64,000 nt of DNA. Source: a bacterium (GTDB lineage Bacteria > Krumholzibacteriota > Krumholzibacteriia > LZORAL124-64-63). The translations under genes were made by a program, and so were the position numbers. Positions 34,120-64,000 of the stretch are shown here, in pieces. The notes under the pieces are model-generated. The model saw nothing but the letters and a program-made list of their open reading frames with translations, ran no database searches and had not been told where the DNA came from. Each line of letters starts with the position of its first letter. The first letter of the stretch is position 1. The stretch spans positions 10,264 through 74,263 of the forward strand of contig JANOEP010000027.1 of NCBI GenBank assembly GCA_031441465.1, written 5' to 3'.

Positions 34120-34910
34120 CCAGGCTGCGCGTGGCCGCGATCCAGACCTCGCCGGTGTTCGGCGAGCCCGCCCACAACCTCGAGACGGCCCTGGCCCTGG
34201 TGCCGCCCGGCCTCGACCTGGCCGTCCTGCCCGAACTCTGCACGACCGGTTACCAGTTCCGCGATCGCGAGGAAGCGCTGGGCCTGGCCGAGACGGCCGA
34301 CGGCCCGACGTCGCGGCGCCTGGCGGCGTGGGCCGCCGCGACCGGCACCACCCTGGTGGCGGGCTTCGCCGAGCGCGACGGTGATCAGCTCTACAACAGC
34401 AGCCTGCTGGTGCGGCCCGACGGCACCACGGCGTTCTACCGCAAGGTCCACCTCTTCTGGGACGAGAAGCTCGTCTTCGCGCCGGGCGACCTCGGCTTTC
34501 CCGTCATCCCGGCCTGCGGCACGTCGGTGGGCATGATGATCTGCTTCGACTGGATCTTTCCGGAGGCGGCCCGCACCCTGGCGCGGCGCGGCGCGAAACT
34601 CATCGCCCACCCCAGCAATCTGGTGCTGCCCCACTGCCCCGACGCGATGGTGACGCGCTGCCTGGAGAACCGCTGCTTCGCGGTGACGGCGAACCGGGTG
34701 GGCGGCGAGGAGCGGGTCGAGGGCCGGCGGCTCGAATTCATCGGCCGCAGCCAGGTCTGCGGCCCCGGCGGTGCGCCCCTGGTGCGCCTCGGCGGCGACG
34801 TCGCGGGCGTCGCCGCGGCCGTGATCGACCTCGCCGACGCCGACCCGCGCCTGACGCCGCGCAACGATGTGTGGGAGGATCGCCGGCCGGATCAGTACAC
34901 GGACGGCTAG
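34116..34910 (+). CDS. carbon-nitrogen hydrolase (nitrilase superfamily)
   Basis: GTG overlapping the upstream TGA; Glu-Lys-Cys triad LPEL / YRKVHL / MICFDW; ANRVG. Confidence 0.9.
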   Translation: MTRLRVAAIQTSPVFGEPAHNLETALALVPPGLDLAVLPELCTTGYQFRDREEALGLAETADGPTSRRLAAWAAATGTTLVAGFAERDGDQLYNSSLLVRPDGTTAFYRKVHLFWDEKLVFAPGDLGFPVIPACGTSVGMMICFDWIFPEAARTLARRGAKLIAHPSNLVLPHCPDAMVTRCLENRCFAVTANRVGGEERVEGRRLEFIGRSQVCGPGGAPLVRLGGDVAGVAAAVIDLADADPRLTPRNDVWEDRRPDQYTDG

Positions 34911-36190
34911 GCTATGGCCTCGGCGCCGGCCCGCCAGTCCTTCGGCACCACGACCACGCCGGCCTCGGTCACCTTGAACAGGCGGTGGTCGGCCTCGCGG
35001 TCCCAGCCGATGTGCATGCCGTCGGGGATCTCGGCGCCCTTGTCGACGATGGCGCGGTGGACCGCCGCGCGCTTGCCGATGCGGGCGTTGTCCATGATCA
35101 CCGAATCGACCACGTGGCAGCCGGCGTCGAGGTAGACGTTGCGACCCAGGATCGAGCGCTCGGCGGTGCCGCCGGAGATGATGGTGCCGCCGCCGACGAT
35201 CGAGCCGATCAACTGCCCGATCGGGCTGGCGCCGTCGAAGTGGTTGTGGACCGTCTTGGCGGGCGGGGCCGGCGCCATCCAGGTGCGGATCGGCCAGTCG
35301 CGGTCGTAGAGGCTGAACGGAGGCACCGGACGGATCAGGTCCATCGAGGCGGCGTAGTAGGTGTCGAGCGTGCCGATATCGCGCCAGTAGCGCGGCTGGT
35401 CGGTCTCGTGGTCGAGGAAGGGATAAGCCAACACCCCGCCTTCGCGCACCATGGCCGGGATGACGTTCTTGCCGAAGTCGTGGGCCGATCTCGGGTCGCC
35501 CGCGTCCTTCTGCAATTCGCTGACGAGGTCCTCGCGGTTGAAGACGTAGACCCCCATGTTGACCAGGCACCAGTCGGGCTTGCCGGGGATCGTCTTGGGG
35601 TCCGACGGCTTCTCCTGGAACCCGATCACCCAGCCCTTCTCGTCGACCTCCAGGATGCCGAACTCGTGGGCCTCGCTGCGCGGCACCACGACCGCGGCCA
35701 GGGTCAGGCGCGCCTTGCGGCGGGAGTGCAGGACCATCAGCGTGGAGTAGTCCATGCGGTAGATGTGGTCGCCGGAGAGGATCAGCACGAAATCGGGCTG
35801 CTCGCGGTCGATGAGGTAGATGTTCTGGTAGATGGCGTCCGCGGTGCCGCGGTACCACATCTCGCCGACGCGATGCTGCGGCGGGATGCCGTAGAGGAAC
35901 TCCCCGGCCTCGTGGTTGAAGATCTGCCAACCCTTCAACAGGTGCTTGTCCAGCGAGTAGGACTTGTACTGCGTCAGCACGTAGATGCGGCGCAGGCCCG
36001 AATTCCAGATGTTGCTGAGCGTGAAGTCGATGATGCGGTAGTTGGCGCCGAACGGCACGCCGGGCTTGGACCGCTCGTCGGTCAGGGGCCGCAGCCGTTC
36101 GCCGCGCCCGCCGGCCATGATCATCGTCAGGGTGTGGCGCGGCAGGTCGAGGATCTTCACGGGCGAGTCCGTCTTGCTGCCGACGCTCAT
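34907..36190 (-). CDS. glgC: glucose-1-phosphate adenylyltransferase
   Basis: MAGGRGERLRPLT, KPGVPFG, WYRGTADAIYQN, LSGDHIYRMDY, FQEKP, HDFGKNVIP, YWRDIGT. Confidence 0.96.
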   Translation of the reverse strand: MSVGSKTDSPVKILDLPRHTLTMIMAGGRGERLRPLTDERSKPGVPFGANYRIIDFTLSNIWNSGLRRIYVLTQYKSYSLDKHLLKGWQIFNHEAGEFLYGIPPQHRVGEMWYRGTADAIYQNIYLIDREQPDFVLILSGDHIYRMDYSTLMVLHSRRKARLTLAAVVVPRSEAHEFGILEVDEKGWVIGFQEKPSDPKTIPGKPDWCLVNMGVYVFNREDLVSELQKDAGDPRSAHDFGKNVIPAMVREGGVLAYPFLDHETDQPRYWRDIGTLDTYYAASMDLIRPVPPFSLYDRDWPIRTWMAPAPPAKTVHNHFDGASPIGQLIGSIVGGGTIISGGTAERSILGRNVYLDAGCHVVDSVIMDNARIGKRAAVHRAIVDKGAEIPDGMHIGWDREADHRLFKVTEAGVVVVPKDWRAGAEAIA

Positions 36191-37638
36191 GTTCCCTCCA
36201 GGCTGCAGTAGAGATCCTCGTAGGCGGCCGCCGGCGCCGCCCAGCCGTAATCCGCGTCCATCCCCCGCCGCACGAGACTACTCCATCGGCCCGGCTCGCG
36301 CCAAGCTTCGATCGTGCGGGCGAGCGCGGCGCCGAGCGCCGCCGGCGTCGCCTCGTCGAAGACGAAGCCGTCCCCGGCGGGGTCGGCGGCGTCGGTCACG
36401 GTGTCGGCCAGCCCGCCGGTGCGCCGCACCACCGGCGGCGTGCCGTAGCGCAGGGCGTACAGCTGGGCCAGGCCGCAGGGTTCGAAGCGCGACGGCATCA
36501 CGAAGGCGTCGGCGCCGGCGTAGAAGCGGCGCGAGAGGGCCTCGTCGAAGCGCGCGGCGAAGGCGATCCGGCCCGGATGAGCCGCCGCGGCCGCGCTCAG
36601 GGCCAGTTCCAGGGCGGGTTCGCCGGTGCCGAGCACGGCCAGCCGCCAGCCGTCGTCGACGAGCGTGCCGACCAGCGGCAACAGCAGGTCGATCCCCTTC
36701 TGCTGCGCCAGGCGGCCGACCGAGGCGAGCACCGGTCCGCCGTCCTCGAGCCCCAGTTCCCTCAGCAGGGCGGTGCGGCAGGCGATCTTGCCGACCGGCG
36801 CACGCGCCGTGTAAGTCGCGGGCAGGCAGGGGTCGGTGGCCGGGTTCCACGCCTCCCGGTCCATGCCGTTGAGGATTCCCGAGAAGTCCGCGCCCCGATC
36901 GCGCAGCACGCCGGCCAGGCCGCAACCCAGGTCCTCGTCGGCGGTCACCTCGTGCGCGTAGGTCGGGCTGACCGTGTTGACCCGGTCGGACAGCAGGATG
37001 CCGGCCTTCATCAGGTTCAGGCCGCCGTGAAATTCCATCTCGCCGGGGTGCCAGGCCAAGCGCGCCGGCAGGTCGAGGCCCGGGAACTCCCAGCGCGGAT
37101 GGAGCGATTGGTGGGCGAGGTTGTGGATCGTCAGCAGCGTGCGGGACTTGGCCAGCGGCGTGCCCGCCCGCGACCAGCAAGCCAGGTCGACGGCCGCCAA
37201 TGCGCTCGCCGCGTCGTGGAGATGGACCACGTCGGGCGCCCAGTCCAGCATCACCGCCGCCTCCAACGCTCCCTGCGCCAGCAGGGCCAGGCGCGGCAAC
37301 GTGTCCGCGAACTCGCTCGTTTGCGCGTAGCCGTAGATGCCGGGGCGAAAGTACAGAGCTGCGTTCTCGAGCAGCAGCACGTCGGGACCCTCGGCGGCCT
37401 GCGCGCGCCAAAACCGGCAGCGCCGCACCGCGCCGCCGCGGCGCACCGCGAAGAACGGCAGTTCCGGGCAGGGCGTCAGCGCGTGCAGTTCCCGGTCGAT
37501 GTCGCCGTAGAGCGGCAGCACGACCTTCACCTCGTGCCCGCGCGCGGCCAGGGCGCCCGCGAGCGCCGCCACCATGTCGCCCAGGCCGCCGGCCTTGGCC
37601 AGCGGCGCGTACTCGGCGGTGATCATCAGGATCTTCAT
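36187..37638 (-). CDS. glgA: glycogen synthase (GT5)
   Basis: KAGGLGD, TIHNLAHQ, NTVSPTYA, GILNG, RLAQQKG, MPSRFEPCGL, TGGLADTV. Confidence 0.95.
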   Translation of the reverse strand: MKILMITAEYAPLAKAGGLGDMVAALAGALAARGHEVKVVLPLYGDIDRELHALTPCPELPFFAVRRGGAVRRCRFWRAQAAEGPDVLLLENAALYFRPGIYGYAQTSEFADTLPRLALLAQGALEAAVMLDWAPDVVHLHDAASALAAVDLACWSRAGTPLAKSRTLLTIHNLAHQSLHPRWEFPGLDLPARLAWHPGEMEFHGGLNLMKAGILLSDRVNTVSPTYAHEVTADEDLGCGLAGVLRDRGADFSGILNGMDREAWNPATDPCLPATYTARAPVGKIACRTALLRELGLEDGGPVLASVGRLAQQKGIDLLLPLVGTLVDDGWRLAVLGTGEPALELALSAAAAAHPGRIAFAARFDEALSRRFYAGADAFVMPSRFEPCGLAQLYALRYGTPPVVRRTGGLADTVTDAADPAGDGFVFDEATPAALGAALARTIEAWREPGRWSSLVRRGMDADYGWAAPAAAYEDLYCSLEGT

Positions 37639-37639
37639 C

Positions 37640-39805
37640 TCAGACCTCCCGCGGCGCGGCGACCCCGTGCTCGATCGCGAACGACTGCCGGAAGGTCTGC
37701 GTGACGCCGGGATCGAGGTCGAGGTCCCAGACGAACAGCAGCAGGTGCCCCTGGTAGGTCAGCCGGAAACCGTCCTCGGCCTGCGTCGCCGTGCGCACGG
37801 CGTGGATCCACACCTCCGCCTCGTTGCCCAGCTCCCAGCGCAGCGCGGCGCGGTGCAGGGGCACCAGCACGGTCAGTTCGCGGCGACGGTCGAGGCGGAC
37901 CGAGTCCAGCGGCGTCGCCGGCTCGTCGCCGTCCGGAGCGTAGGCGCCGCCGTCGTACAGGGCCAGGTTCCACTCCGGCGCGAAACGGCAGCGCACGCGT
38001 TCCGTGCCGATGTTGCGCACCGTCCAGGCGACGTCGAACGCCGCGCCGTTGCGGTGCAGCGCCACCGTCTTCTCCACCTGCAGCGGGAAGGCGCGGCCCC
38101 CGCGGTCGCGGTAGCAGCCTTCGCGGCGGGTCTGGAAGCGATCGTCCTCGAGGCTGCCCGTCTGGCCAAAGCGGGGCGACGTCATCGCCGCCGGCGCGGC
38201 GGCGAAATCGCCGCCGTCCTGGCCGGCCATGTCCGGCAGCACGTTGGGGAACCCGGCGTCCGGGTGCAGGAAGCGCTCGAGCAGGGAATAGCGGGGCTGG
38301 GGGTCCACGGCCAGCGCCCGCTTGATTTCCGGCGACACGCGGGTGACCAGGTCGTGGATCGACACGCCCTGATCGGCGCCGGCGGCGTCGCCGCCCGCCC
38401 CGGTGAGCGGCGCGCGCTCGATCTTGGTGTGGTAGGCCTCGCGCCGGCGGCGCAGGGTGTTCTGGAGATTCCAGTCCTCGCGGCGGTCTTCGAGACCGAT
38501 CAGCGCGCCGCCGCGGTCCGGCGAGAGGTAAAGTTCGATCGCGTCGTTGCCCAGCCGCACGTCGGTGCCCGTCCGGCCGACCAGCGACACCATCTGGGCG
38601 CGCGGGGGCGGCGCCACGGTCTGGATGATCTCGGTGCCCAGGATCAGGTGCCGGTAGATCGCGTGACGCAGGTGCGGCAGGTAGAGACCGCCGAAGACGC
38701 CGTGCCAGTAGGCGCAGTTGCACTGGGCCCGCCACAAGTGGTCGCGGGCCTCGTCGACGCGCTGCTCGTCGGCGCCGGTGGCCTCGGCGGCGGCGATCTC
38801 CTCGTGCAGCAGCAGGGAGCGCCGCTGCATCAGCAGGCTCTCCTCGTACTTCTGGAAGAACTGGCGCCAGAAACCGCCCCTGAAGAAGGGGCGCATCTCG
38901 TCCCAGCGGTCCTGGTCGCGGTAGGCGTGCACCGCGTCGGCGAAGATCTCGGCGGCGGGCATCGGCAACGACCATTCCGACATCTCGAAGTAGCTGCCGG
39001 GCGGCAGGTAGACGCGCTCGCGCGGCGGGCGGGCCCGCAGCACCTCGGACGGGTGCGCCAGCTCGAGCCAGTCCGACTCGGCGTCCAGGGCCGTACAGAA
39101 GCGGTCCAGCCAGCCGCGGCCGTAGACGAGGTCGTGGGTGCCGGGCCAGGCGCCGAACTTCTCGCCGTCGTCGATCATGACCAGGACGCCCTCGGGGTCG
39201 CGCTCGTGCAGGGCGCGGCAAGCGGCCACGGTTTCGGACGGGTCGCGGAACGGGATCAGGTAGCGCAGCTGCTCGCTGATGGGCAGCAGGGCCACCTCGT
39301 GGCCGAGGTCGTCGGTCAGCAGCGGGCCGTGGGTCAGGCGCTCCGGCGGCACGCCGGCCTGGACGAAGTGGTAGTCGTCGAGCAGGGCGAACTCCACGCC
39401 GGCGCGGGCCAGCGAGCCGGCCAGGTGCGGCTCCCAGACGCGCTCGGCCATCCAGACGCCGCGGCAGTCGGCGCCGAGGTGCTGGCGCACCCAGTCGCAC
39501 ATCATCCGCAGCTGGCCGACGCGGTCGCGCTCCGGGATGGCGGCGAGGATCGGCTCGTAGAAGCCGCCGCCGAGCATCTCCACGCGCCCCGCGCGCACCA
39601 GGAAGGCCGCGCGCTCGAGCCACTCCGGGTGGTGGCGCTGCAGCCATTCCAGCAGGGGTCCGCTCACGTGCAGGCTGAAGCGGAAACGCTCGTGGCGCTC
39701 GACCCGCTCCAGGAACGGCAGGTAGCTGCTGCGGTAGATGTCCTCGATCACGTGATCGAAGTTGCCGACGGGCTGGTGGTTGTGGATGCCGACGACGAGC
39801 TTCAC
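37640..39805 (-). CDS. GH57 4-alpha-glucanotransferase / alpha-amylase type (cytoplasmic)
   Basis: GTG start; conserved regions HNHQP, GGFYEPIL, WMAERVW, DDGEKFG, AQCNCAYWHG; C-terminal beta-sandwich domain. Confidence 0.92.
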   Translation of the reverse strand: MKLVVGIHNHQPVGNFDHVIEDIYRSSYLPFLERVERHERFRFSLHVSGPLLEWLQRHHPEWLERAAFLVRAGRVEMLGGGFYEPILAAIPERDRVGQLRMMCDWVRQHLGADCRGVWMAERVWEPHLAGSLARAGVEFALLDDYHFVQAGVPPERLTHGPLLTDDLGHEVALLPISEQLRYLIPFRDPSETVAACRALHERDPEGVLVMIDDGEKFGAWPGTHDLVYGRGWLDRFCTALDAESDWLELAHPSEVLRARPPRERVYLPPGSYFEMSEWSLPMPAAEIFADAVHAYRDQDRWDEMRPFFRGGFWRQFFQKYEESLLMQRRSLLLHEEIAAAEATGADEQRVDEARDHLWRAQCNCAYWHGVFGGLYLPHLRHAIYRHLILGTEIIQTVAPPPRAQMVSLVGRTGTDVRLGNDAIELYLSPDRGGALIGLEDRREDWNLQNTLRRRREAYHTKIERAPLTGAGGDAAGADQGVSIHDLVTRVSPEIKRALAVDPQPRYSLLERFLHPDAGFPNVLPDMAGQDGGDFAAAPAAMTSPRFGQTGSLEDDRFQTRREGCYRDRGGRAFPLQVEKTVALHRNGAAFDVAWTVRNIGTERVRCRFAPEWNLALYDGGAYAPDGDEPATPLDSVRLDRRRELTVLVPLHRAALRWELGNEAEVWIHAVRTATQAEDGFRLTYQGHLLLFVWDLDLDPGVTQTFRQSFAIEHGVAAPREV

Positions 39806-41816: not shown

Positions 41817-42899
<1,083 letters not shown>

Positions 42900-56073: not shown

Positions 56074-59000
56074 ATGCGAGCCAGCCAACTCCTGCGAACC
56101 CGCGCGGCCCTGGCCGCGTTGCTCGTCCTGCTGGGCGCCGCGGGCGCCGCGGCCGAACCCTTCCACACGCCGACCGTCAACGGCCTCATCGCCGGCGACG
56201 GCGTCGACTGGGAGACGCCCGACCGCGTGCTCGACGACTTCGACGACGACGGCAACCAGCGCTCGGGCAACACCCGTCACCTGTGGCTCACCTGGGACCA
56301 GAACAATCTCTACCTCGGCCTGAACTACCAGGCGCTGGACCGCACGGTCGTGGTCTACCTCGACGCGGGGCTGGGCACGGGACCCACCGACGCGTCGCTG
56401 CTCGACCAGTTCCCCCGCGCCCTCGTGCTGCCCGCGGGTCGGCACATCGACCTGCTGCTCGCGCAGCACCACACCGGGTTCACCAACCTCGGCACGCTGC
56501 AGGCCTGGCGCGTCACCGACGCAACCGGCGCGCTGACCGAGATCACCACCTCGACGCAGAACGCCCAGACCTACGGCGTGGACAACACCTTCCCCGGCGC
56601 CAGCATCTTCTGGTTCCGCAACGAGATCGCCATCCCCTGGAGCGTGGTCTACCCCGACGGCCCACCCGCACACGCGGTGCTGCGCGCCGCCGTGGCCGTC
56701 ACCCCCGGCGCCGACGGCGCCGGCGCCGACGACCTCATGCCCGGGCTCGGCCGGCTCGAAGGCGTCGCGGGTCCGATCCGGATCGCCCAGATGCACGCCT
56801 CGATCCTCGATCAGGACGGCGACGGCGAGGTCGACCCCCTCGACGCCGGCGCCAGCGGCACGGTCACCCTGCAGCAGGATCCGGGCAACGCGGCGATCAC
56901 CGCGACGGCCACGCTGACCGACTGGAGCGGCGCGCCGCTCGGCGGTCCGATCGCCGCGGTCCGCACCGCCGCCGGCGCCCACGACTACCGTCTCGGCCGC
57001 TTGGCCGCCGGCACCTACACGCTGCAGTTCTCGGCGCCGGGCTACTTCCCCAACACGATCGAGGTCACGGTAGCGGCCGGACAGGAGCTGACCGGCGCCA
57101 ACGTCACGCTGGAGAAGGCGACCACGATCACCGGCACGCTCGCGCTCGAGTTGGCCGGCTCGCGCGGCGGTTTCGTGTTCCGGGCCCCGGACGGCGCGGT
57201 CCTGGCGGAGCAGCCGCTGCTGCTGCCCAACCAGTTCCCGTACCACTTCACGTTCTACGTGCAGGAGAGCGGCGACTACGAGCTGGAAGCCTTCGCCGCC
57301 AACCACCTGCGCCGGACCTTCACCATCCCCGTGGTCGCGGGCGTCGATGTCGCGAACCTCGTCCTGCAGCTGCCGCGGGCGCCCCTGATCGCCGGCGCCG
57401 CCTCGTTCGCCAGCGGCCCCGGCGCGGCCGGCACCGTGACGATCGGCAACGCGGCCGGCGACACCGTCCTGGCGACCACGGTGATCGGACCCGGCGCGAC
57501 CGCGTTCTCGTACTACGCGCCGCGGCTCGGGGCCTTGACCCTGCGAGCCACCGCCGGCACCTACGCCCCCGTCGTGCTGAACGTCAACGTCGTCGCGGGC
57601 CAGGACCTGAACGGGCTCGCGCTGCCGCTACACCGCCTGCCGCAGCTCGCCGGCTCGATCGGCTTCGCCGACGGGCCCGGACACGCAGGCCGGCTGATCC
57701 TCTCCGGCGGCGCCGCCGATCCCGACACGCTGGACTTCCCCGCGGACGGCGGCACGTTCGCCGAAGGCTCCGGCGAGCTGGCGCCCTTCTTCGTGCCCGC
57801 CGGGAGCTACCTGCTCACGGCCGAGGCCGACGGCTACGTTCCGCAGACCCGCGAACTGGCCGTGGCCGACGCGCCCGACCAGACAGTGGACGCGGGCGTG
57901 TTCTCGCTGCTGGCGGTGCGGGCCGACCGCCTGCGCCTGCTGGACGACCAGGGCCTGCCGACGGTGAGCGTGTCGGCCACGGTCTCGGTCCCCGCGGACG
58001 GCTTCTACTCCTACGCGCCGCTGCGGCTCGAGGCGGTCGACGCCGCAGGGCGGCGCGACCTGTTTGACCTCGACGCCAAGCTGGCGGACCTACCCCTGAC
58101 CGCGCGCAAGCTCGACGACGTGTCGCCGCCGAGCGGGGCCGCGCGCTTCCTCGCGAGCGAGGACTTCGCGGACGTCGTCACCACCGCCAGCGCCGACAGC
58201 GGCCTGATCCGGCTCTGGATCGCCGACGACGCGGTCGAAGTGCTGCGCCTCTACGTTGGACCCGACGTTCCCGACCACCTCAAGCAGGGACCCGAGTCCC
58301 CCACGGCCCGCTTCATGGTCGGCTTCAACGACCCCCGCCCGGCCGTCGTCGTGCTCGCGGCCGAACGCGACACGCTGCGCACCGACGGCCAGGACGCCGT
58401 GCTGGTCTCGGCCCAGCTCTACGACTCCGCCGGCAACGCGAGCCTCCTGCCCGATATCGCGGTCACCTTCTCCGTCGCCCCGTCCTCGACCGGCGAGGGC
58501 GCCTTCACCGTCCCCACGGTGACCACCAACGCCGACGGCTTCGCCGTGGCCGAGCTGACCGCCACCGGCACCGGCGTGCTGCAGATCGACGCGTCCGTGT
58601 CCATCGACGGCGCGGTCCTGGAAGTCCGCACCGGTGGGCCGGACGGGCCCGTCGGCCGCCTGCCGGTGACCGTCATCCCCGGGGTCACGGTCTCCTGGCG
58701 GATCGCCGCCGCGGCGGGCACCGCCGGCATCGCCTTGCCGGCGACCATCGTCGCGCAGCTGGTCGACGCCTACGGCAACCCCACCGCGGACGCGGGCGTG
58801 CCGCTGACGTTCGTCGCGGCGCCCGCGACGCTCGGCTCGTTCACCGTCCCGGCGACCCAGAGCGGCGCCGACGGCCGGGCCACGGCCGTCTTCCAGCCCG
58901 CCGGCCTGGCCGGTGTGGTGACCCTCGACGCCGTCTCGTCCGCGTATCCCGTGGAGCCGGTCCTGCTGCAACTGCGCGACGTGGCCGTCGAGACCGACCC

Positions 59001-62000
59001 CGACTGGCAGAACGAGCCCGCAGACCACAACAGCTTCGACACGATCGACCTGACCGCCGTCGTGCTGGACAACACGCCCGACACGTTGCTGCTGGAGATC
59101 CCCTTCACCACCGACTGGGCCGGCGTCCAGCTGCACGTGCTGCTGGAGACCAACGCCGACGCGGGCGGCGCCGCGAGCGACCCCTTCGTCATGCCCGTCA
59201 ACTACGGCCACGCGCTGCGGCCCGACTACGCCCTGACCTCGAAGTATTCCGCCAACGACTACGGCGACTTCCGCAAGGCGTCCGGCGCGGGCTGGCAGTT
59301 CTGGAGCACCGCGACGGCGACCTTCGAAGACTCCCCCGGCACGAACAACATCCAGGACAGCTGGGTCGAGATCACGGCCGACGCGGTCCGCATCGCCATC
59401 CCGTTCGCGGCCCTCGGGGGCGCGCCCGATTCGCTGCGCTGCGAGGTCTACGCCACGCAGGAGGACGGGGGCCAGAAGCGCTCGGCCTTCGACTCGGTCC
59501 CGCCCGACGCCACCCTCGACCTGGACTTCGACTACCTCGACCCGCAGACGGGCGACTGGGAGTCGACGGTGCTGCCGACCACGCTCGCCAACTGGGGCCG
59601 CACCTACCGGATCAAGACCGACTTCCCGACGCCGCCGGCGGTGACCGAAGCCGCCGCCGCGCCCGTCGAACTGACGGCCGGCACGCCCTACGTCCTGACC
59701 GCCCGGGTCCTGGACGCGGGCGACGGCGTCGGCGACGTGCTGGCCGACCTCTCGTCGACGGCGGGCGCCGCGCTGGCGCGGATGCACGACGACGGCGAGA
59801 CGGCCCACGGCGACGCCTTCGCGGGCGACGGCGTCTTCAGCCTGCGCGCGTTGGTGCCCCTGGGCAGCCCCGGCGGCGAGCAACCGCTGGTGGTCCTGGC
59901 CTACGACGCCGCCAACCGCGTCGCCGCGCGCGACACGGCGCTGGTGCAGGTCGCCGCGCAGGTCGAGATCCTCCGCAGCACCACCGACGCCGAGGGCGAC
60001 GACCACGGCCCGAACCAGCCGAGCGAGGCCCTCAAGTACTACACCTACCCGACCAACGCCGTCTTCGTGCCGAACGCCTTCGACCTGCGCTCGCTGAACG
60101 TGTACGAGACCACGGCCGTGGTGGCCGGCCGGCCGGTCGTCATGCTGGCCTTCGAGATCGGCGTCGGCGACTTCCCCAACCCCGCCGATCCCGGCATGGC
60201 CGACTGGAACCCCACCTACGGCGAGATGAACATCCAGAAACTGGACCTGCTGATCGACAGCGCGCCGGGCGGGGCGACCACCGGCCTGCCCAACCGCCGC
60301 CTGGACCTGCAGCCCTGGAACGCCTGGGAGTACGCCGTGATCATGGACGGCTGGTACAAGGCGCTGGTCCCTTCGTTGGGCCTGAACTCGCTGGACGCCT
60401 GGCGCGAGAACGCCCTGCGCAACGACGTCGACATGCAGTTCTCCGGGGACTTCGACCGCAACACGATCACCGCCCTGGTCTCCAAGGCGGCCCTGGGCAA
60501 CCCGACCGCCGACGACGTGCGCAACTGGAACATCGCCGTGCTGATCTCGAGCCACGACTTCGGCGGCGAAGAGGTCCTGGGCGGCGTGCGCTGGGTCAAC
60601 GAGGCGCGCAGCGAGTGGAACTTCGGCGGCGGCCACTACACCGACCGCGACGCCAACGTCATGGATCTGCTGCTCTCTCCGGGCGCCGGCCGCAGCGCCG
60701 GCCTGCCCCAGGAGCAGATCCTGGACTACGACCGGCCCGAAGCGCGCGACCGCCTGGCGCAGGGCCTGGCCGCCTGCGCCCTGGAGATCTCCGCTTTCGA
60801 GGACACCGGCCCGCCGGTGATCCGCATCGTCAAGGACTACGGTGAGGTCGTGCGCCGCACGCCGCTGCGCGACGCGCCGATCGCCTTCACCCTGGAGATC
60901 AGCGACGACTACGCCGTCGACCACGCAACCTTCCGCTACCGGCCCAGCAGCGCCGCCGGCGCCTGGTCGGCGGAATCGCCCATGGGCTACGTGGGCAACG
61001 ACCTCTGGAGCGTCGACATCCCCGCCGCGTGGCTGGACGAGAACCTGGTGCGCTCCCCCGTCGACGGCACGCGCTACCTGGAGTTCCAGGTCGAGGCCGT
61101 CGACGCCAGCGCCGAGCACAAGACCACCGTCTCGCCGGTGACCACCATGCAGATCGAGGAGACGGCCGAGAGCCTGCGACTGACCGCAGCCATGGTTGCG
61201 GGCGAAGTGCGGCTGCGCCAAGTGGAGGGCTCGACGCTGGTCCTGGACGACGCCCTGCGCGGCCGGCTGGTCGAGTACTACCGCGACTGGACAGGCTCGA
61301 CCCTGACGGCCGACAGCCTGGCGATCGTGCTGGAACTCGGTTGGGATCTGCGCCGGGTCCCGGACAGCGTGCGCAGCGCCCCCGCCGCCACGGACGCCCG
61401 TCCACTGGGGGTGACCCGCGAGGTGCGGCTGGACCTCGCCGCGACGTCGAGTCGCCTGGTGCCGCTCGATGACCGCCTCCCGGGTCCACTGTCGCTCACG
61501 CTGCACTACATGCAGTCGGACCTGCCGCCCGGCGCCGACGAGGACCAGGTCGCGGTCTTCGAGTACCACGCCGCGGCGAACCGCTGGGTCCTGGTCGGCG
61601 GCAACGTCAATCCCGACGGCAACGAGGTCACCATCAACACCGACCACGCCGGGACCTACGGCCTGTTCTGGGCCCGCGACCTCGGCTACGACACGGGTGA
61701 GGTCGTCTCCGGCGTCACGATCTCGCCGAACCCGTTCTCCCCCAACGGCGACGGGCTCTACGACCAGACCACGATCAGCTTCTACCTCGACCGCGAGGCT
61801 TCGATCACGCTCGAGGTCTACAACATCGACGGCAAGCTCAAGGCGCGGCTGCAGGAGACCGTCTCCTACACCGGCGACGACGACGCCCAGGGCCGACCTC
61901 GCCGCATCGCCGGCTTGATCTGGGACGGCACCGACGGGAACGGCGACCTCGTCCCTTACGGCGTGTACGTGCTGCGCCTGCTGGCCACCTACCAGGTGGG

Positions 62001-62052
62001 CGGCGGCAACCGCACGATCGGCAGCAACCATCCCGTGGCGGTGATCCGATGA
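56074..62052 (+). CDS. 1992-aa secreted multidomain surface protein (DOMON/CBM9-like, carboxypeptidase-regulatory-like, Big_1, glucodextranase-C-like domains; type B-like T9SS C-terminal domain)
   Basis: Signal peptide; L..G.Y.L...A.GY repeats; AQLYDSAGN...TTNADG.A and AQLVDAYGNP...SGADGRA Ig domains; DAEGDDHGP...YTYPTNAVF...AFDL; terminal SPNPFSPNGDGLYD...WDG...GVY. Confidence 0.85.
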   Translation: MRASQLLRTRAALAALLVLLGAAGAAAEPFHTPTVNGLIAGDGVDWETPDRVLDDFDDDGNQRSGNTRHLWLTWDQNNLYLGLNYQALDRTVVVYLDAGLGTGPTDASLLDQFPRALVLPAGRHIDLLLAQHHTGFTNLGTLQAWRVTDATGALTEITTSTQNAQTYGVDNTFPGASIFWFRNEIAIPWSVVYPDGPPAHAVLRAAVAVTPGADGAGADDLMPGLGRLEGVAGPIRIAQMHASILDQDGDGEVDPLDAGASGTVTLQQDPGNAAITATATLTDWSGAPLGGPIAAVRTAAGAHDYRLGRLAAGTYTLQFSAPGYFPNTIEVTVAAGQELTGANVTLEKATTITGTLALELAGSRGGFVFRAPDGAVLAEQPLLLPNQFPYHFTFYVQESGDYELEAFAANHLRRTFTIPVVAGVDVANLVLQLPRAPLIAGAASFASGPGAAGTVTIGNAAGDTVLATTVIGPGATAFSYYAPRLGALTLRATAGTYAPVVLNVNVVAGQDLNGLALPLHRLPQLAGSIGFADGPGHAGRLILSGGAADPDTLDFPADGGTFAEGSGELAPFFVPAGSYLLTAEADGYVPQTRELAVADAPDQTVDAGVFSLLAVRADRLRLLDDQGLPTVSVSATVSVPADGFYSYAPLRLEAVDAAGRRDLFDLDAKLADLPLTARKLDDVSPPSGAARFLASEDFADVVTTASADSGLIRLWIADDAVEVLRLYVGPDVPDHLKQGPESPTARFMVGFNDPRPAVVVLAAERDTLRTDGQDAVLVSAQLYDSAGNASLLPDIAVTFSVAPSSTGEGAFTVPTVTTNADGFAVAELTATGTGVLQIDASVSIDGAVLEVRTGGPDGPVGRLPVTVIPGVTVSWRIAAAAGTAGIALPATIVAQLVDAYGNPTADAGVPLTFVAAPATLGSFTVPATQSGADGRATAVFQPAGLAGVVTLDAVSSAYPVEPVLLQLRDVAVETDPDWQNEPADHNSFDTIDLTAVVLDNTPDTLLLEIPFTTDWAGVQLHVLLETNADAGGAASDPFVMPVNYGHALRPDYALTSKYSANDYGDFRKASGAGWQFWSTATATFEDSPGTNNIQDSWVEITADAVRIAIPFAALGGAPDSLRCEVYATQEDGGQKRSAFDSVPPDATLDLDFDYLDPQTGDWESTVLPTTLANWGRTYRIKTDFPTPPAVTEAAAAPVELTAGTPYVLTARVLDAGDGVGDVLADLSSTAGAALARMHDDGETAHGDAFAGDGVFSLRALVPLGSPGGEQPLVVLAYDAANRVAARDTALVQVAAQVEILRSTTDAEGDDHGPNQPSEALKYYTYPTNAVFVPNAFDLRSLNVYETTAVVAGRPVVMLAFEIGVGDFPNPADPGMADWNPTYGEMNIQKLDLLIDSAPGGATTGLPNRRLDLQPWNAWEYAVIMDGWYKALVPSLGLNSLDAWRENALRNDVDMQFSGDFDRNTITALVSKAALGNPTADDVRNWNIAVLISSHDFGGEEVLGGVRWVNEARSEWNFGGGHYTDRDANVMDLLLSPGAGRSAGLPQEQILDYDRPEARDRLAQGLAACALEISAFEDTGPPVIRIVKDYGEVVRRTPLRDAPIAFTLEISDDYAVDHATFRYRPSSAAGAWSAESPMGYVGNDLWSVDIPAAWLDENLVRSPVDGTRYLEFQVEAVDASAEHKTTVSPVTTMQIEETAESLRLTAAMVAGEVRLRQVEGSTLVLDDALRGRLVEYYRDWTGSTLTADSLAIVLELGWDLRRVPDSVRSAPAATDARPLGVTREVRLDLAATSSRLVPLDDRLPGPLSLTLHYMQSDLPPGADEDQVAVFEYHAAANRWVLVGGNVNPDGNEVTINTDHAGTYGLFWARDLGYDTGEVVSGVTISPNPFSPNGDGLYDQTTISFYLDREASITLEVYNIDGKLKARLQETVSYTGDDDAQGRPRRIAGLIWDGTDGNGDLVPYGVYVLRLLATYQVGGGNRTIGSNHPVAVIR

Positions 62053-62930
62053 CAAGAACCACGACGAGGCGGGTCCTGCTCGCCCTCCTGCTGGTGCTCG
62101 GCGCCGCCCAGTCGGCCCGGGCCGACTTCCGCCACGCCCGTCTGGGTGCGCGGCCGCGGGCCCTGGGCTCGGCCTTCACGGCGTTGAGCGACGACCCCAA
62201 CGCCGTGTTCTGGAACCCCGCCGGCCTGTCGCGCGACGACCGGCTCTCGCTCACGCTCAGCCGGGCCTGGCAATACTCGGCGGAAGGCCTGGGCACCGAC
62301 GACCTGATCGTGACCTCGCCCGACCTGTGCGGTCTGCGGGTGGGCCTGGGCGTCATCCGCGTAGGCATCGAGGACCTGCTGTACGAGGACACCTACGCCC
62401 TGGCCGGCGCCGTGCGCGCACCGTGGCTGGAGGGGCTCTCGCTCGGGGTGACGGGCAAGGTCTTCCGCCTGGAGGCGCCCGGCTACGAGAGCTACGGCGA
62501 CCCCGCCTACAACGGCGGCGACATGGGCTTCGCCGTGGACCTGGGCTTCCTCTACGACAGCGGCCGGGCCTGGACCCTGGGCGGCGTGGTGCAGAACCTG
62601 AACGAGCCCTACCTGCAGCTGCTGGAGACGACCGTGGACCCCGATCCGGTGTTCAGCACCTTCGCCGTGGGCGGCAGCTACCTCTTCCGCGAGACACTGC
62701 GGGTCAGCGGCGACGTGCGCAGCCGCGAGGGCGGCTTCGGCGACACGACGCTGCACGGCGGCGCCGAGATCTGGTTCTTCGACGCGCTGGCCCTGCGGGC
62801 CGGCCTCGCCGCCGGCCAGGTCACGATGGGCTTCGGCCTGCAGGACGTGCGCTGGCAGCTCGACGTGGCCCTGGAATCCTTCGAACGCGTCGGCAACGTG
62901 TACATGCTCTCTTTCACGGTGAGGGACTGA
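62049..62930 (+). CDS. PorV/PorP-like outer-membrane beta-barrel
   Basis: ATGA overlap with the giant gene; signal peptide; GARPRALGSAFTALSDDPNAVFWNPAGL; GFAVDLGFLY; LALRAG. Confidence 0.82.
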   Translation: MTRTTTRRVLLALLLVLGAAQSARADFRHARLGARPRALGSAFTALSDDPNAVFWNPAGLSRDDRLSLTLSRAWQYSAEGLGTDDLIVTSPDLCGLRVGLGVIRVGIEDLLYEDTYALAGAVRAPWLEGLSLGVTGKVFRLEAPGYESYGDPAYNGGDMGFAVDLGFLYDSGRAWTLGGVVQNLNEPYLQLLETTVDPDPVFSTFAVGGSYLFRETLRVSGDVRSREGGFGDTTLHGGAEIWFFDALALRAGLAAGQVTMGFGLQDVRWQLDVALESFERVGNVYMLSFTVRD

Positions 62931-62931
62931 C

Positions 62932-64000
62932 GTGAAGTCTAGCTGGCGACGCAGTGCGCTCCTGCTGCTGACCGCGGCCCTGACGGCCGGCTCCGCGGCG
63001 ACCGCCGCGGCGGCGACGAAGCTCGAGGGGTACTACTCGATCTGGTCCGCCGCCGACCGCACCGACCGCAACTGGCATTTCGGGATGCCCTCCCACTACG
63101 CGGAGCTGAAGTTCCTCAACAACGCCAGCGAGGGCGTCGAGAGCTTCGTCAAGCTGCGCGTCAACGCCAACAGCGACGACGACCGCACCTCGTTCGTCGA
63201 GTACTACACGCCGCCCTGGATCGCGGCGGAGGGGCACATCAAGTTCCGCAGCAAGGCCACCGAGACGATCCTGTTCTCGCGCCAGAACCACTTCTGGATC
63301 AACGACGAGCCCCTGTTCAACCTCGTCAGCGACGGCAAGCTGAAGAACGACAGCTACGGTCCGCAGTCCCAGGGCGTGCGCTTCGAGCTTTTCAACCACC
63401 GGCTGCCCGGGCTGGGCACGTGGGGCGCCGTCGCCATCTACAGCGACGACGGCGGCACCCACAACTGGGGGCAGGGCGACGTGCGCGACGGCGTCGACTC
63501 CTGGATCGTGCGCGTGCGCAACCGCTCCTGGGGCGACCGCCTGGTGGGCGGCCTGATGTTCCTGCGCAAGGACTGGACCGACACCGGTGCGCCGCTGGCC
63601 ACGTCGCGGCTCGGCCTGATGAACAACCAGGTCTACGAAGCCGACCTGGCCTTCTTCCCCCACGACCTGGTCGCCGACGGTCTGCACCTCGGCCCGCTGG
63701 ACCTGGAACAGTCGCGCTGGACACTCGAATACGCGCTGAGCCGCGTGCCCTACCAGGAGCACATCAGCGGCCACCCCACCGATTTGAACCGCCTCTTCGG
63801 CGCCGAGGTGCGCGACATCCACGTCGGCAACCTCATCCTGCACGGCTGGTACCACGACGCCGGCGAGAACTTCCGCGACTTCCTCTCCGGGCGCTGGGAC
63901 GACGAGCGCAAGTACAACCGGATCACCCAGCACGCCGAGGGCATCTTCTTCGTGCCCCGCAAGGCGATCACCGCCAAGGTCGCCTACGACAAGGAGCGGC
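62932..64000 (+). CDS. exported beta-rich protein, probable outer-membrane barrel (truncated by window edge)
   Basis: Manual translation from GTG 62932: MKSSWRRSALLLLTAALTAGSAATAAA-ATKLEGYYSIWSAADRTDRNWHFGMPSHYAELKF...; open to the window end with GC3-rich codons; missing from the ORF track. Confidence 0.72.
   Translation, partial: MKSSWRRSALLLLTAALTAGSAATAAAATKLEGYYSIWSAADRTDRNWHFGMPSHYAELKFLNNASEGVESFVKLRVNANSDDDRTSFVEYYTPPWIAAEGHIKFRSKATETILFSRQNHFWINDEPLFNLVSDGKLKNDSYGPQSQGVRFELFNHRLPGLGTWGAVAIYSDDGGTHNWGQGDVRDGVDSWIVRVRNRSWGDRLVGGLMFLRKDWTDTGAPLATSRLGLMNNQVYEADLAFFPHDLVADGLHLGPLDLEQSRWTLEYALSRVPYQEHISGHPTDLNRLFGAEVRDIHVGNLILHGWYHDAGENFRDFLSGRWDDERKYNRITQHAEGIFFVPRKAITAKVAYDKER

What the first reader, a model, noticed from the sequence alone, without database searches (positions are those of the whole stretch)
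34907..64000. Candidate undescribed alpha-glucan utilisation system: T9SS-displayed GH57/CBM/scaffold proteins with MalEFGK and glycogen synthesis, no SusCD or GH13 visible
Seen: 15 contiguous genes covering a plausible full route. Surface capture: the 1992-aa scaffold and the 791-aa multi-CBM protein. Extracellular cleavage: a secreted GH57-like enzyme. Outer membrane: a PorV-like barrel and an unassigned beta-rich protein. Periplasm: a debranching enzyme with a signal peptide. Inner membrane: MalEFG and MalK. Cytoplasm: two GH57s plus glgA and glgC. Four genes carry T9SS/FlgD-type C-terminal domains. Known: Bacteroidota use SusC/SusD with GH13, enterobacteria use LamB with MalEFGK, and GH57 amylopullulanase beside a maltodextrin ABC transporter is typical of Thermococcales. 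Inference: a hybrid, archaeal-like enzyme set exported by FCB-type secretion, coupling glucan foraging directly to storage. The locus continues beyond the window, so the absence of susCD is provisional.
Basis: partly seen in the sequence, partly recalled or inferred. Interest (0 to 1): 0.82.

Follow-up and report, generated by a model that had tools for sequence, protein, structure and literature searches.

The report
Non-Sus starch/glycogen foraging locus, T9SS-linked
This stretch encodes a predicted starch/glycogen harvesting and storage gene set that pairs secreted surface proteins, including an unannotated GH57-like enzyme, with a maltodextrin ABC importer and unusual glycogen-binding outer-membrane barrels, but it is not free of classical GH13 amylases: two lie just past the window.

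Summary
The 1257-aa protein has no family annotation, but profile-profile alignment, a predicted structure and a conserved Glu/Asp pair place it with GH57. Downstream lie two large outer-membrane barrels (one fused to CBM48) and a CBM48 lipoprotein.

The "no GH13" point fails. The contig's last 141 bp equal the first 141 bp of another contig. That contig starts with an exported 5xCBM48 neopullulanase-type GH13 about 1 kb beyond the last locus gene, then a GH13 lipoprotein. Relatives carry the same GH13 inside the locus. No SusD was found in the genome and no TonB-dependent receptor on the contig.

Only the GH57-like enzyme and its 791-aa partner are widely adjacent (21 of 25 full-flank loci). 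MalEFG (12 of 25) and the barrel cassette (5 of 25) join in shuffled orders. The barrel was found only in genomes that have the enzyme (20 of 20).

Verdict: a SusCD-independent, T9SS-assisted alpha-glucan locus using both GH13 and GH57-like enzymes. It is a new variant of a known kind, and all functions are predicted.

The parts
34907..36190 (-). g1 glgC, glucose-1-phosphate adenylyltransferase, 427 aa
   Evidence: Pfam NTP_transferase 188.8 bits plus Hexapep_GlmU and LbH_GLGC. GC3 0.96.
36187..37638 (-). g2 glgA, glycogen/starch synthase, 483 aa
   Evidence: Pfam Glyco_transf_5 218 bits plus Glycos_transf_1.
37640..39805 (-). g3 cytoplasmic GH57, 4-alpha-glucanotransferase type, 721 aa, GTG start overlapping the g4 stop
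   Evidence: Pfam GH57 141 bits plus AmyA-A_glucT_m and AmyA-gluTrfs_C. PDB 1K1W at E 7.7e-130. g3 E121 and D213 align with chain residues E123 and D214. No signal peptide is seen.
39802..41514 (-). g4 cytoplasmic GH57, 570 aa, Aquifex amylopullulanase-like
   Evidence: Pfam GH57 122.7 bits. PDB 9jlq/8zyi at E about 1e-76. Those entries are titled GH57 family amylopullulanase from Aquifex aeolicus.
41733..42899 (+). g5 MalK-type ABC ATPase, 388 aa
   Evidence: Pfam ABC_tran, OB_MalK and TOBE_2.
42917..45148 (-). g6 exported GH133 amylo-alpha-1,6-glucosidase, 743 aa, signal peptide, no T9SS C-terminal domain
   Evidence: Pfam GDE_C 209 bits. A hydrophobic leader precedes the conserved mature start in 8 of 8 homologues.
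45281..46552 (+). g7 signal peptide + metallophosphoesterase + T9SS-type C-terminal domain, 423 aa
   Evidence: Pfam Metallophos 28.3 bits and FlgD_ig 35.7 bits. Its C-terminal domain is 38% identical to that of g9. Its link to the system is weak: 3 of 80 loci.
46632..49007 (-). g8 791-aa T9SS cargo: shared N-terminal module X, Big_5, three tandem repeats, C-terminal domain
   Evidence: Pfam and NCBIfam hits: FlgD_ig 36.5 bits, TIGR04183 26.0 bits (cut-off 23), Big_5. Repeats m1-m3 match each other at hhalign E 1e-11 to 1e-43. m2 against CBM48 gives probability 57%, E 1e-4. It lies next to g9 in 21 of 25 full-flank loci.
49019..52792 (-). g9 1257-aa secreted GH57-like enzyme: signal peptide, N-terminal beta-sandwich, GH57-fold catalytic and C domains (about 177-815), module X (about 905-1150), C-terminal domain
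   Evidence: AF2 model pLDDT 77.8. Foldseek gives 1K1X at E 1e-15. VIA gives Z 28.7 to 1k1x and Z 24-25 to other GH57s. hhalign against 29 TLGT-like GH57s gives probability 97.3%, E 2.6e-11 over 527 columns. E307 and D405 are at least 90% conserved.
52953..53795 (-). g10 MalG-type permease, 280 aa
   Evidence: Pfam BPD_transp_1.
53795..54694 (-). g11 MalF-type permease, 299 aa
   Evidence: Pfam BPD_transp_1.
54691..55944 (-). g12 MalE-like solute-binding lipoprotein, 417 aa
   Evidence: Pfam SBP_bac_8 88 bits. NCBIfam MalE model at E 2e-29, below its equivalog cut-off. A lipobox-like AGGC is in the leader.
56074..62052 (+). g13 1992-aa surface protein: module X, CarboxypepD_reg, Big_1, Glucodextran_C (1302-1555), C-terminal domain
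   Evidence: Pfam Glucodextran_C 90 bits. Its C-terminal domain is 37% identical to that of g8. No catalytic family appears in about 60 homologues of about 2000 aa.
62049..62930 (+). g14 293-aa PorV/PorQ/PorP-superfamily outer-membrane barrel; its start overlaps the g13 stop by 4 bp
   Evidence: NF033709 at E 2e-15 (57 bits, cut-off 90), PorQ at 3.7e-7, PorP family at 0.005, Pfam TraF_2. It is not among the genome's hits to the canonical PorV model.
62932..64000 (+). g15 536-aa predicted outer-membrane barrel (runs to window-equivalent 64542). Beyond the window: g16 (64614-66662, CBM48 + about 22-strand barrel), g17 (66673-67119, CBM48 lipoprotein), then across the C27/C48 join a 5xCBM48 GH13 (68093-71914, minus strand) and a GH13 lipoprotein (71976-73886)
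   Evidence: g15: signal peptide, C-terminal aromatic ...TWF and no Pfam hit. hhalign to the g16 barrel gives E 4.5e-5.

g16: AF2 pLDDT 84.7, with generic barrel matches at Z 14-15.6.

g17: lipobox in all 10 homologues read, 9 by pattern and 1 by eye.

Join and GH13s.

Best explanation
This is a SusCD-independent alpha-glucan (starch, glycogen or pullulan-type) utilisation locus of a Krumholzibacteria-like FCB bacterium, sitting beside a glycogen synthesis and remodelling operon.

Shown by the sequence and the tools:
- The families of 11 of the 15 window genes.
- Four homologous T9SS-type C-terminal domains.
- A GH57 fold and a conserved Glu/Asp pair in g9.
- Two exported GH13 genes just downstream.
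- A CBM48-fused large outer-membrane barrel and a CBM48 lipoprotein.
- Tight operon spacing.

Inferred route:
1. The T9SS exports g9 (GH57-like), its constant partner g8 and the giant g13 to the cell surface. g13 may be held by the adjacent PorV/PorQ/PorP-like barrel g14. With the Sec-exported 5xCBM48 neopullulanase-type GH13, these bind and cut alpha-glucan.
2. Oligosaccharides cross the outer membrane through the plugless barrels g15 and g16, helped by the CBM48 of g16 and by lipoprotein g17. No TonB-dependent receptor is involved.
3. In the periplasm the GH133 enzyme g6 trims branches and lipoprotein MalE hands chains to MalFGK.
4. In the cytoplasm the TLGT-type GH57 g3 and the amylopullulanase-like GH57 g4 process maltodextrins. 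GlgC and GlgA can bank glucose as glycogen.
For: Families.

g9 is GH57-like:
- hhalign probability 97.3%, E 2.6e-11, 527 columns.
- VIA Z 28.7 to 1k1x over 485 residues, and Z 24-25 at rmsd 3.1-3.4 A to other GH57s. CE4 scores about 20 and GH38 14-16.
- E307 and D405 align to the nucleophile and the acid/base of g3 and 1K1W, and are at least 90% conserved in 32 sequences.

Operon structure:
- malE-malF-malG have overlapping ends and are followed by g9 and g8 on the same strand.
- g13 to g17 are separated by -4 to 71 bp.

Linkage in shuffled orders across relatives. Of 25 loci with at least 8 kb on both sides, g8 is present in 21, MalEFG in 12, the barrel cassette in 5, and MalEFG or the cassette in 15.

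GH13 beside g9 in 14 of 80 loci, and in this genome across the contig join.

Phyletic pattern in 61 genomes of the phylum: g9 in 23 and the g16 barrel in 20. All 20 with the barrel have g9. In 12 of the 19 other genomes with both, the two genes lie on one contig within about 35 kb.

T9SS: SprA, PorU-like (403 bits, full length) next to PorV-like, and 49 C-terminal-domain-only hits genome-wide.

No SusD. No TonB-dependent receptor on C27.

Weak hint: metatranscriptome contigs of 90-95% relatives, from 2 runs of one study, cover g8, g9, malE/F/G, g13 and g15. One spans 52776-53882, across the malG-g9 gap.
Against: - Nothing is tested biochemically.
- g9 fails the Pfam GH57 cut-off (15.6 against 21.2 bits). 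Its closest structure is a transferase, not a hydrolase.
- g8 has no recognised CBM in 30 of 30 members.
- The module shared by g8, g9 and g13 is generic: 925 representatives, and of 49 scanned only 2 carry GH13 and 1 carries CBM20.
- The g16 barrel matches all outer-membrane barrels equally (Z 14-15.6). By the usual topology of such barrels (recalled), its N-terminal CBM48 would face the periplasm, which fits surface capture poorly.
- In 10 of 25 full-flank loci the g9-g8 pair has neither MalEFG nor the barrel cassette within the fetched flanks. In the two of these that were scanned (L020, L070) the sampled neighbours are unrelated genes.
- g1-g4 adjacency is confined to close relatives.
- PorU, PorV and g14 score below curated cut-offs. 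GldM was not found, though that control was silent.
- The RNA libraries may contain DNA and come from relatives.
Confidence: 0.7

Rival explanations
1. The g13-g17 cassette is secretion and anchoring equipment rather than an uptake route. g14 would be a PorP/SprF/PorQ-like partner that holds the giant cargo g13. g15, g16 and g17 would tether glucan or cargo at the surface. Oligosaccharides would enter through ordinary porins.
For: - g14 hits the PorV/PorQ/PorP family models, all below cut-off.
- Its start overlaps the stop of g13.
- The g13-g14 pairing recurs in L007, L013, L076 and L078.
- The g8 and g13 C-terminal domains hit CHU_C weakly, E 0.002-0.004.
- Cognate PorP/SprF-like genes next to large cargo are known from Flavobacterium (recalled, not checked here).
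Against: - The g13 C-terminal domain is homologous to the type-A-like domains of g7, g8 and g9.
- g15 and g16 are about 500-550-residue barrels, far larger than PorP/PorQ.
- CBM48 on g16 and g17 points to glucan handling.
- The barrel co-occurs with g9 even where g13 is not nearby.
Confidence: 0.15
2. The surface and periplasmic parts build or remodel an extracellular or periplasmic alpha-glucan (capsule, matrix or periplasmic store) rather than forage. g9 would act as a transglycosylase and the CBM48 barrels as exporters.
For: - The best match for g9 is a 4-alpha-glucanotransferase.
- glgC and glgA are in the locus.
- An N-terminal CBM48 on a barrel would face the periplasm by usual topology (recalled).
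- AlgE-type exporters are among the tied structural matches.
Against: - A binding-protein-dependent importer, MalEFG, sits upstream of g9-g8 on the same strand. MalK is nearby.
- Exported degradative enzymes accompany the locus: a neopullulanase-type GH13 at E 9e-107 and GH133.
- No glycosyltransferase or Wza/BcsC-type export gene is seen in the locus.
Confidence: 0.1
3. This is a chance juxtaposition. A glycogen operon, a maltodextrin ABC transporter and unrelated T9SS cargo genes merely happen to be neighbours in this genome.
For: - The full 15-gene order is kept only in the closest relatives (L007, L032, partly L010, L013, L074).
- g9-g8 stand among sampled unrelated genes in the two loci scanned, L020 and L070.
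- g7 is linked in only 3 of 80 loci.
Against: - The same parts recur with changed order and strand in distant relatives with only 40-60% identity in g9, for example L034, L076 and L084.
- The barrel was found only in genomes that have g9, 20 of 20.
- GH13 is adjacent in 14 of 80 loci.
Confidence: 0.05

Closest known systems
Bacteroidota starch utilisation system (SusCDEFG with GH13 SusG/SusA)
   Same: - FCB-group diderm.
- Surface glucan-binding proteins and surface amylolytic enzymes.
- Lipoproteins carrying starch-binding modules.
- An exported neopullulanase-type GH13.
- One multi-gene locus.
   Different: - No SusD in the genome and no TonB-dependent SusC-type receptor on the contig.
- Inner-membrane import by a MalEFGK ABC system.
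- Surface proteins carry T9SS C-terminal domains instead of lipoprotein anchors.
- A GH57-like secreted enzyme is added.
Enterobacterial maltose regulon (LamB, MalE, MalFGK, periplasmic MalS)
   Same: - Binding-protein-dependent MalEFGK import.
- A periplasmic alpha-glucan-trimming enzyme.
- Outer-membrane passage without TonB.
   Different: - No LamB-family assignment. Maltoporin is only one of many tied barrel matches (Z 15.4).
- The barrels are about 22-stranded by strand count on the model, and one is fused to CBM48.
- MalE is a lipoprotein.
- Secreted surface enzymes are present.
Thermococcales maltodextrin transporter with GH57 amylopullulanase (recalled from the literature, not checked here)
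   Same: A GH57-type extracellular enzyme is encoded next to malEFG-type genes. A Glucodextran_C/SLH-like module is in the locus (g13).
   Different: - Here the host is a diderm with T9SS export and outer-membrane barrels.
- g9 is closer in fold to the T. litoralis 4-alpha-glucanotransferase than to amylopullulanases.
- GH13 enzymes are part of the locus.
T9SS-dependent polysaccharide degraders such as Cytophaga hutchinsonii and 'Ca. Paraporphyromonas polyenzymogenes' (search listings only)
   Same: CAZymes and binding proteins exported through the T9SS by C-terminal domains, with contact-dependent degradation.
   Different: - Different substrate (alpha-glucan rather than cellulose) and different phylum.
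- Linked ABC importer.
- CBM48-fused barrels.

Membership tests
GH57 (for g9) | (beta/alpha)7-barrel catalytic domain with GH57-type helical and C-terminal beta-sandwich domains | tested here: met
   VIA gives Z 28.7 to 1k1x (485 residues, model 178-794). It gives Z 24-25 at rmsd 3.1-3.4 A to Aquifex, Staphylothermus, Thermus and Thermococcus GH57s. CE4 (about 20) and GH38 (14-16) score lower. Foldseek E is 1e-15.
GH57 (for g9) | Catalytic nucleophile Glu and acid/base Asp at the GH57 positions (E123 and D214 of the T. litoralis enzyme; residue roles recalled, positions checked) | tested here: met
   g9 E307 (WIPERVW) and D405 (EDWE) align to g3 E121 and D213. Those align to chain residues E123 and D214 of 1K1W. 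Both are at least 90% conserved in 32 sequences.
GH57 (for g9) | Scores above the curated Pfam GH57 threshold | tested here: not met
   PF03065 scores 15.6 bits, E 0.011, against a cut-off of 21.2. Only FlgD_ig, Por_Secre_tail, one PF10029 and one Big_5 are precomputed for the 120 listed homologues, and no GH57.
GH57 (for g9) | Activity on alpha-1,4 / alpha-1,6 glucans | not testable with these tools
   Context only: MalEFG, GH13 and CBM48 neighbours.
T9SS cargo (g7, g8, g9, g13) | N-terminal signal peptide plus a recognised C-terminal sorting domain | tested here: met
   - g8: TIGR04183 26.0 bits (cut-off 23) and FlgD_ig 36.5 bits.
- g7: FlgD_ig 35.7 bits.
- g9: FlgD_ig 26.7 bits (cut-off 27) and TIGR04183 16.2 bits.
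- g13: weak CHU_C only, but 37% identical to the g8 domain.
- Signal peptides were read.
The feature is met at the thresholds for g7 and g8, and by homology for g9 and g13.
T9SS cargo (g7, g8, g9, g13) | T9SS core machinery present in the genome | tested here: inconclusive
   - SprA_N scores 43.5 bits, over its cut-off, in a 2267-aa frame.
- PorU model scores 403 bits full length against a cut-off of 420.
- A PorV-like gene at 95 bits (cut-off 250) lies next to it.
- GldM gave no hit, but the control genomes were silent too.
- GldK, GldL and GldN were not searched.
Sus-like polysaccharide utilisation locus | Adjacent SusC-type TonB-dependent transporter and SusD-type lipoprotein | tested here: not met
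   PF07980 gave 0 hits in the genome, which is 96.8% complete. PF00593 gave 8 hits, none on C27. Other SusD models (PF14322, PF12741, PF12771) were not searched.
PorV / PorQ / PorP-SprF (for g14) | Scores above a curated family model | tested here: not met
   NF033709 scores 57.2 bits (cut-off 90), NF033711 29.5 (220) and TIGR03519 16.2 (90.55). g14 is not among the 6 genome hits to NF033710. The resemblance is at superfamily level only.
CBM48 (g16 and g17) | Pfam CBM_48 / AMPK1_CBM above threshold | tested here: met
   g16 scores AMPK1_CBM 53.4 bits and CBM_48 49.5 bits. g17 is just below threshold (24.3 against 26.8). It is 38% identical to the g16 module, E 9e-14, and its key residues are invariant in 9 sequences.
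Maltoporin LamB or TonB-dependent transporter (for the g16 barrel) | A specific structural or sequence match standing above other barrels; a plug domain for a TonB-dependent transporter | tested here: inconclusive
   Z is 14-15.6 for TonB-dependent barrels, porins, maltoporin, ushers and AlgE alike. No Plug or TonB_dep_Rec Pfam hit was found.
GH133 (g6) | Pfam GDE_C above threshold | tested here: met
   209.2 bits against a cut-off of 21.

The most novel reading that the evidence does not exclude
g14-g17 form a previously undescribed TonB-independent outer-membrane glycan-import apparatus of Krumholzibacteria, Eisenbacteria and Latescibacteria-type bacteria. In it, two paralogous plugless barrels of about 22 strands, one carrying a tethered CBM48, plus a CBM48 lipoprotein do the job of SusC/SusD. 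It is fed by a new T9SS-displayed GH57 subfamily (the g9 family, currently annotated only as 'FlgD Ig-like' or hypothetical) and its obligate partner g8.
Probability: 0.3. Interest if true: 0.8.

Novelty: new variant of a known kind. Interest (0 to 1): 0.6.

Why it matters
Starch and glycogen uptake across the outer membrane is understood for two models: SusCD in Bacteroidota and LamB in enterobacteria. This locus suggests a third arrangement in uncultured FCB phyla that are common in sludge, sediments and soils. It would combine T9SS-displayed enzymes, glycogen-binding barrels and an ABC importer.

The work also gives functional leads for several large, conserved, unannotated protein families:
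- The g9 family. The word-index search gave 268 hits at E <= 0.001, and the genome-contig scan gave 221 stretches encoding a relative.
- The g16 'glycogen-binding domain' barrels (120 hits, about 100 of them full length).
- g8 and g13.
- A domain with 925 representatives and no Pfam model.

If g9 is active, it extends GH57 to secreted mesophilic bacterial enzymes.

Tried and rejected
My first frames for g3 (37635-39974) and g7 (45247-46617) came from the raw ORF list and were wrong. The own-genome GH57 hit and the GC3 phase corrected them.

Searches that gave nothing:
- g9, g13 and g8 against PDB sequences found only FlgD-like tails.
- The A1 profile against PDB found only FlgD.
- The module X profile against PDB gave no hit below E 0.39.

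Weak or non-significant tests:
- hhalign of A1 against the single sequences g3 and g4 was not significant (probability 2% and 0.2%). Only the profile-profile run against 29 sequences was.
- ESM Atlas scores for g9 (0.75-0.78) and for neighbours of g8 (0.82-0.83, T9SS + CBM20 clusters) are below 0.9 and are leads only.
- hhalign did not link module X to Glucodextran_C (no pair above 30%).

Rejected idea: that g13 carries a type-B C-terminal domain needing g14. The domain is homologous to the others, so I keep this only as a rival.

Complex prediction of g16 with g17 gave no verdict (score 0.00). This is no evidence either way.

Consensus scans:
- Promoter scan: 2 sigma-70-like sites, one at 52927-52898 before g9.
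- Terminator scan: 4 sites, fewer than the 5.9 expected from shuffles.

RNA runs: only 2 runs of one study, holding small shares of the query words (0.09 and 0.05). They are contigs of 90-95% relatives, and 98% of the laid pieces run on into unlike sequence. I name no habitat and claim no expression level.

Literature:
- No paper holds both 'Krumholzibacteriota' and 'GH57'.
- Eight papers hold 'GH57' and 'type IX secretion'. By title and abstract none concerns this system.
- The searches gave nothing on CBM48 barrels or on this system.
- For PMC11495043 I read passages only. Its supplementary tables, which may list CAZymes of Krumholzibacteriota MAGs, are closed.

Not done:
- dbCAN/CAZy subfamily assignment.
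- A fold for g8, g13 or g15 (fold cap reached).
- Searches for GldK, GldL and GldN.

Full report
**Observation**

The window is 70% G+C, so raw ORF lists are crowded with false frames. I set the gene models by the three-phase GC profile and by start-codon context. All 15 models between 34907 and 64000 have GC3 of 0.92-0.97 and one terminal stop. Two frames I first took from the ORF list (g3 and g7) were wrong. They were corrected after the own-genome GH57 search hit a different frame. The window is G000:C27:10264-74263, and contig C27 ends 3.3 kb beyond the window.

**What the genes are**

| Gene | Assignment | Evidence |
|---|---|---|
| g1 | glgC | |
| g2 | glgA | |
| g3 | GH57 with the two extra domains of the Thermococcus litoralis 4-alpha-glucanotransferase, 721 aa | Pfam; PDB 1K1W at E 7.7e-130; g3 E121 and D213 lie opposite chain residues E123 and D214 |
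| g4 | GH57, closest solved relative the Aquifex aeolicus GH57 amylopullulanase | E about 1e-76 (titles) |
| g5 | MalK | |
| g6 | GH133 (GDE_C, 209 bits), with a hydrophobic leader in 8 of 8 homologues read | |
| g10-g12 | MalG, MalF and a MalE-like lipoprotein | |

g4 to g1 form one tight minus-strand operon. malE-malF-malG-g9-g8 lie on one strand, with overlapping ends inside malEFG, a 160-bp gap before g9 and an 11-bp gap before g8. g13 to g17 run the other way from a 129-bp divergent region, with gaps of -4 to 71 bp.

**The secreted proteins**

g7 (metallophosphoesterase), g8, g9 and g13 all have signal peptides. Their C-terminal domains are homologous to each other (BLASTP E 2e-9 to 3e-16). 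They hit FlgD_ig and the T9SS type A sorting-domain model, at threshold for g7 and g8 and just under it for g9.

The genome has:
- a SprA hit;
- a full-length PorU-like gene at 403 bits, against a cut-off of 420;
- 49 further hits confined to the C-terminal-domain part of the PorU model;
- a PorV-like gene right beside PorU.

GldM was not found, but the control genomes gave no signal either.

**g9 is a GH57-like enzyme**

- Pfam GH57 gives only 15.6 bits.
- None of the 120 listed homologues carries a GH57 annotation. They are named hypothetical, 'FlgD Ig-like' or 'T9SS type A sorting domain' proteins of Krumholzibacteria, Latescibacteria and Eisenbacteria MAGs.
- A 32-sequence alignment shows HGNQ, WVPERVW and EDWE motifs.
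- An AlphaFold2 model (pLDDT 77.8) finds the T. litoralis enzyme first in Foldseek (E 1e-15).
- VIA-align gives Z 28.7 to that enzyme and Z 24-25 (rmsd 3.1-3.4 A) to GH57 amylopullulanases and branching enzymes. CE4 enzymes score about 20 and GH38 14-16.
- A profile of the g9 core (31 sequences) aligns with a profile of 29 TLGT-like GH57s from the phylum (loci). The probability is 97.3% and E is 2.6e-11 over 527 columns. g9 E307 and D405 sit on the catalytic Glu and Asp.

I therefore call g9 GH57-like in fold and active site. I leave formal membership open, because the curated threshold is not met.

**g8 and g13**

g8 is the constant partner of g9. No CBM family is detected in any of 30 family members. 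It has three tandem repeats (hhalign E 1e-11 to 1e-43). One of them resembles CBM48 weakly (probability 57%).

g13 belongs to a family of about 60 proteins of about 2000 aa. It has a Glucodextran_C domain and no catalytic family.

g8, g9 and g13 share a roughly 200-residue module (hhalign 97-99%). That module has no Pfam or PDB sequence match. It is widespread and not specific to alpha-glucan proteins. There are 925 representatives. Of 49 scanned, 2 carry GH13, 1 carries CBM20 and 1 carries CBM9.

**The outer-membrane cassette**

- g14 is a small barrel of the PorV/PorQ/PorP superfamily, below every curated cut-off. It is not the canonical PorV.
- g15 (536 aa) and g16 (682 aa) have signal peptides and C-terminal aromatic residues, as do their homologues.
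- The g16 model (pLDDT 84.7) is a CBM48 sandwich, a linker and about 22 long strands.
- That barrel matches TonB-dependent barrels, porins, maltoporin, ushers and AlgE alike, at Z 14-15.6. It has no plug domain.
- g15 is a distant paralogue of that barrel (E 4.5e-5).
- g17 is a CBM48 lipoprotein. A lipobox is present in all 10 homologues read, 9 found by pattern and 1 by eye.

**The locus does not end at the contig end**

The last 141 bases of C27 are identical to the first 141 of C48, in the same orientation. In two relatives that are 88-92% identical, the C27 tail and the C48 head map contiguously.

C48 then carries, in order:
- a DUF134 helix-turn-helix gene and a Nitro_FeMo-Co gene;
- an exported protein of about 1270 aa with five CBM48/AMPK1_CBM stretches and a neopullulanase/TVA II-type GH13, E 9e-107. 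It is convergent with g17 and about 1 kb from it;
- a GH13 lipoprotein.

A third GH13, with a T9SS C-terminal domain, is on contig C16, and a cytoplasmic one is on C10.

The orthologue of the CBM48-GH13 lies between g8 and g17 in L027, L033, L038, L068 and L079. It lies beside g9 in L067 and L084. A different GH13 lies just upstream of g9 in seven Eisenbacteria-labelled loci. In total 14 of 80 loci have a GH13 near g9.

**Conservation**

The genome-contig scan matched 265 stretches, of which 221 encode a relative of g9. I examined the 80 loci kept. Of these, 25 have at least 8 kb on both sides of g9.

| Component near g9 | Full-flank loci (of 25) |
|---|---|
| g8 | 21 |
| MalEFG | 12 |
| Barrel cassette | 5 |
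| MalEFG or cassette | 15 |
| g13 | 6 |
| g6 | 5 |
| g3/g4 | 4 |

Order and strand vary. Varying order argues for selection on linkage rather than inheritance of one arrangement. In 10 of the 25, neither MalEFG nor the barrel cassette is within the fetched flanks. In the two of these that were scanned (L020, L070), the sampled neighbours are unrelated genes.

In 61 sampled genomes of the phylum:

| Gene | Genomes with a match (of 61) |
|---|---|
| g9 | 23 |
| g16 barrel | 20 |
| TLGT-like g3 | 34 |

All 20 genomes with the barrel also have g9, and three genomes with g9 gave no barrel hit. The g3 distribution follows a different pattern. Related genomes are not independent, so these counts are descriptive.

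**Mechanism and comparison**

The best reading is a SusCD-independent alpha-glucan utilisation system:
1. T9SS-displayed g9, g8 and g13, together with Sec-exported GH13s, bind and cut the polymer.
2. The g14-g17 cassette is the most likely outer-membrane passage.
3. GH133 trims branches in the periplasm.
4. MalEFGK imports the chains.
5. The two cytoplasmic GH57s and GlgC/GlgA process and store the sugar.

The families, the folds, the C-terminal domains, the contig join and the synteny are shown. Substrate, surface location, transport through the barrels and the link to storage are inferred.

The system shares its logic with Sus and with the E. coli maltose system, but it is a member of neither. 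No SusD was found, no TonB-dependent receptor lies on the contig, and no LamB assignment can be made.

The parallel with Thermococcales (a GH57 enzyme beside malEFG) is recalled from the literature. It is weakened by the GH13 genes in the locus.

**Novelty**

The searches and the passages read found no description of this system, of a T9SS-linked GH57, or of CBM48-fused barrels. Supplementary files could not be read.

I rate it a new variant of a known kind, with interest 0.6. Several conserved, unannotated families gain a coherent and testable role. The striking 'archaeal-like, GH13-free' claim does not hold, and nothing is shown experimentally.

Noticed in passing
C27 end (window-equivalent about 67168-67308) and C48 1-141: The two contigs of the assembly overlap by 141 identical bases in the same orientation. 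They map contiguously in two relatives. The assembly break therefore hides the continuation of the locus.
   Followed up: yes
L001:4384-4572 (window-equivalent about 67120-67308), just after g17: A perfect 24-nt inverted repeat flanks about 95 nt directly downstream of g17 and spans the contig break. It could be a terminator, a repeat element or the cause of the assembly break.
   Followed up: no
L003:160-835 (C48; window-equivalent 67327-68002): A DUF134 helix-turn-helix gene (96 aa) and a Nitro_FeMo-Co gene (127 aa) sit between g17 and the GH13. They are the only candidate regulator near the locus, and no MalR/LacI/MalT-type gene was seen.
   Followed up: partly
window 45281-46552: A T9SS-type secreted metallophosphoesterase (g7) lies inside the locus but is linked to g9 in only 3 of 80 loci. 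It may be an unrelated passenger, or it may act on phosphorylated glucans. This is speculative.
   Followed up: partly
g8 residues 28-235, g9 905-1150, g13 28-260: A roughly 200-residue extracellular module has no Pfam or PDB sequence match. It is found in 925 cluster representatives, often in several copies per protein and in very varied architectures.
   Followed up: partly
G000:C10:157445-161636: PorU-like and PorV-like genes are adjacent, as in Bacteroidota. A further 49 hits across the genome are confined to the C-terminal-domain part of the PorU model, which suggests a large T9SS secretome.
   Followed up: partly
G000:C16:132208-134847 (L004:3208-5847): An 879-aa GH13 alpha-amylase with Malt_amylase_C and a T9SS-type C-terminal domain lies away from this locus.
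   Followed up: partly
window 52898-52927 (minus strand): A sigma-70-like promoter match lies in the 160-bp gap between malG and g9. It would fit g9-g8 also being an independent unit, as in genomes where the pair stands alone.
   Followed up: no
window 32887-34910: A GT4 glycosyltransferase (410 aa) and a 264-aa ORF read by eye as a nitrilase/CN-hydrolase-like protein (not scanned) lie directly upstream of glgC on the other strand. There is no evident link to the locus.
   Followed up: no
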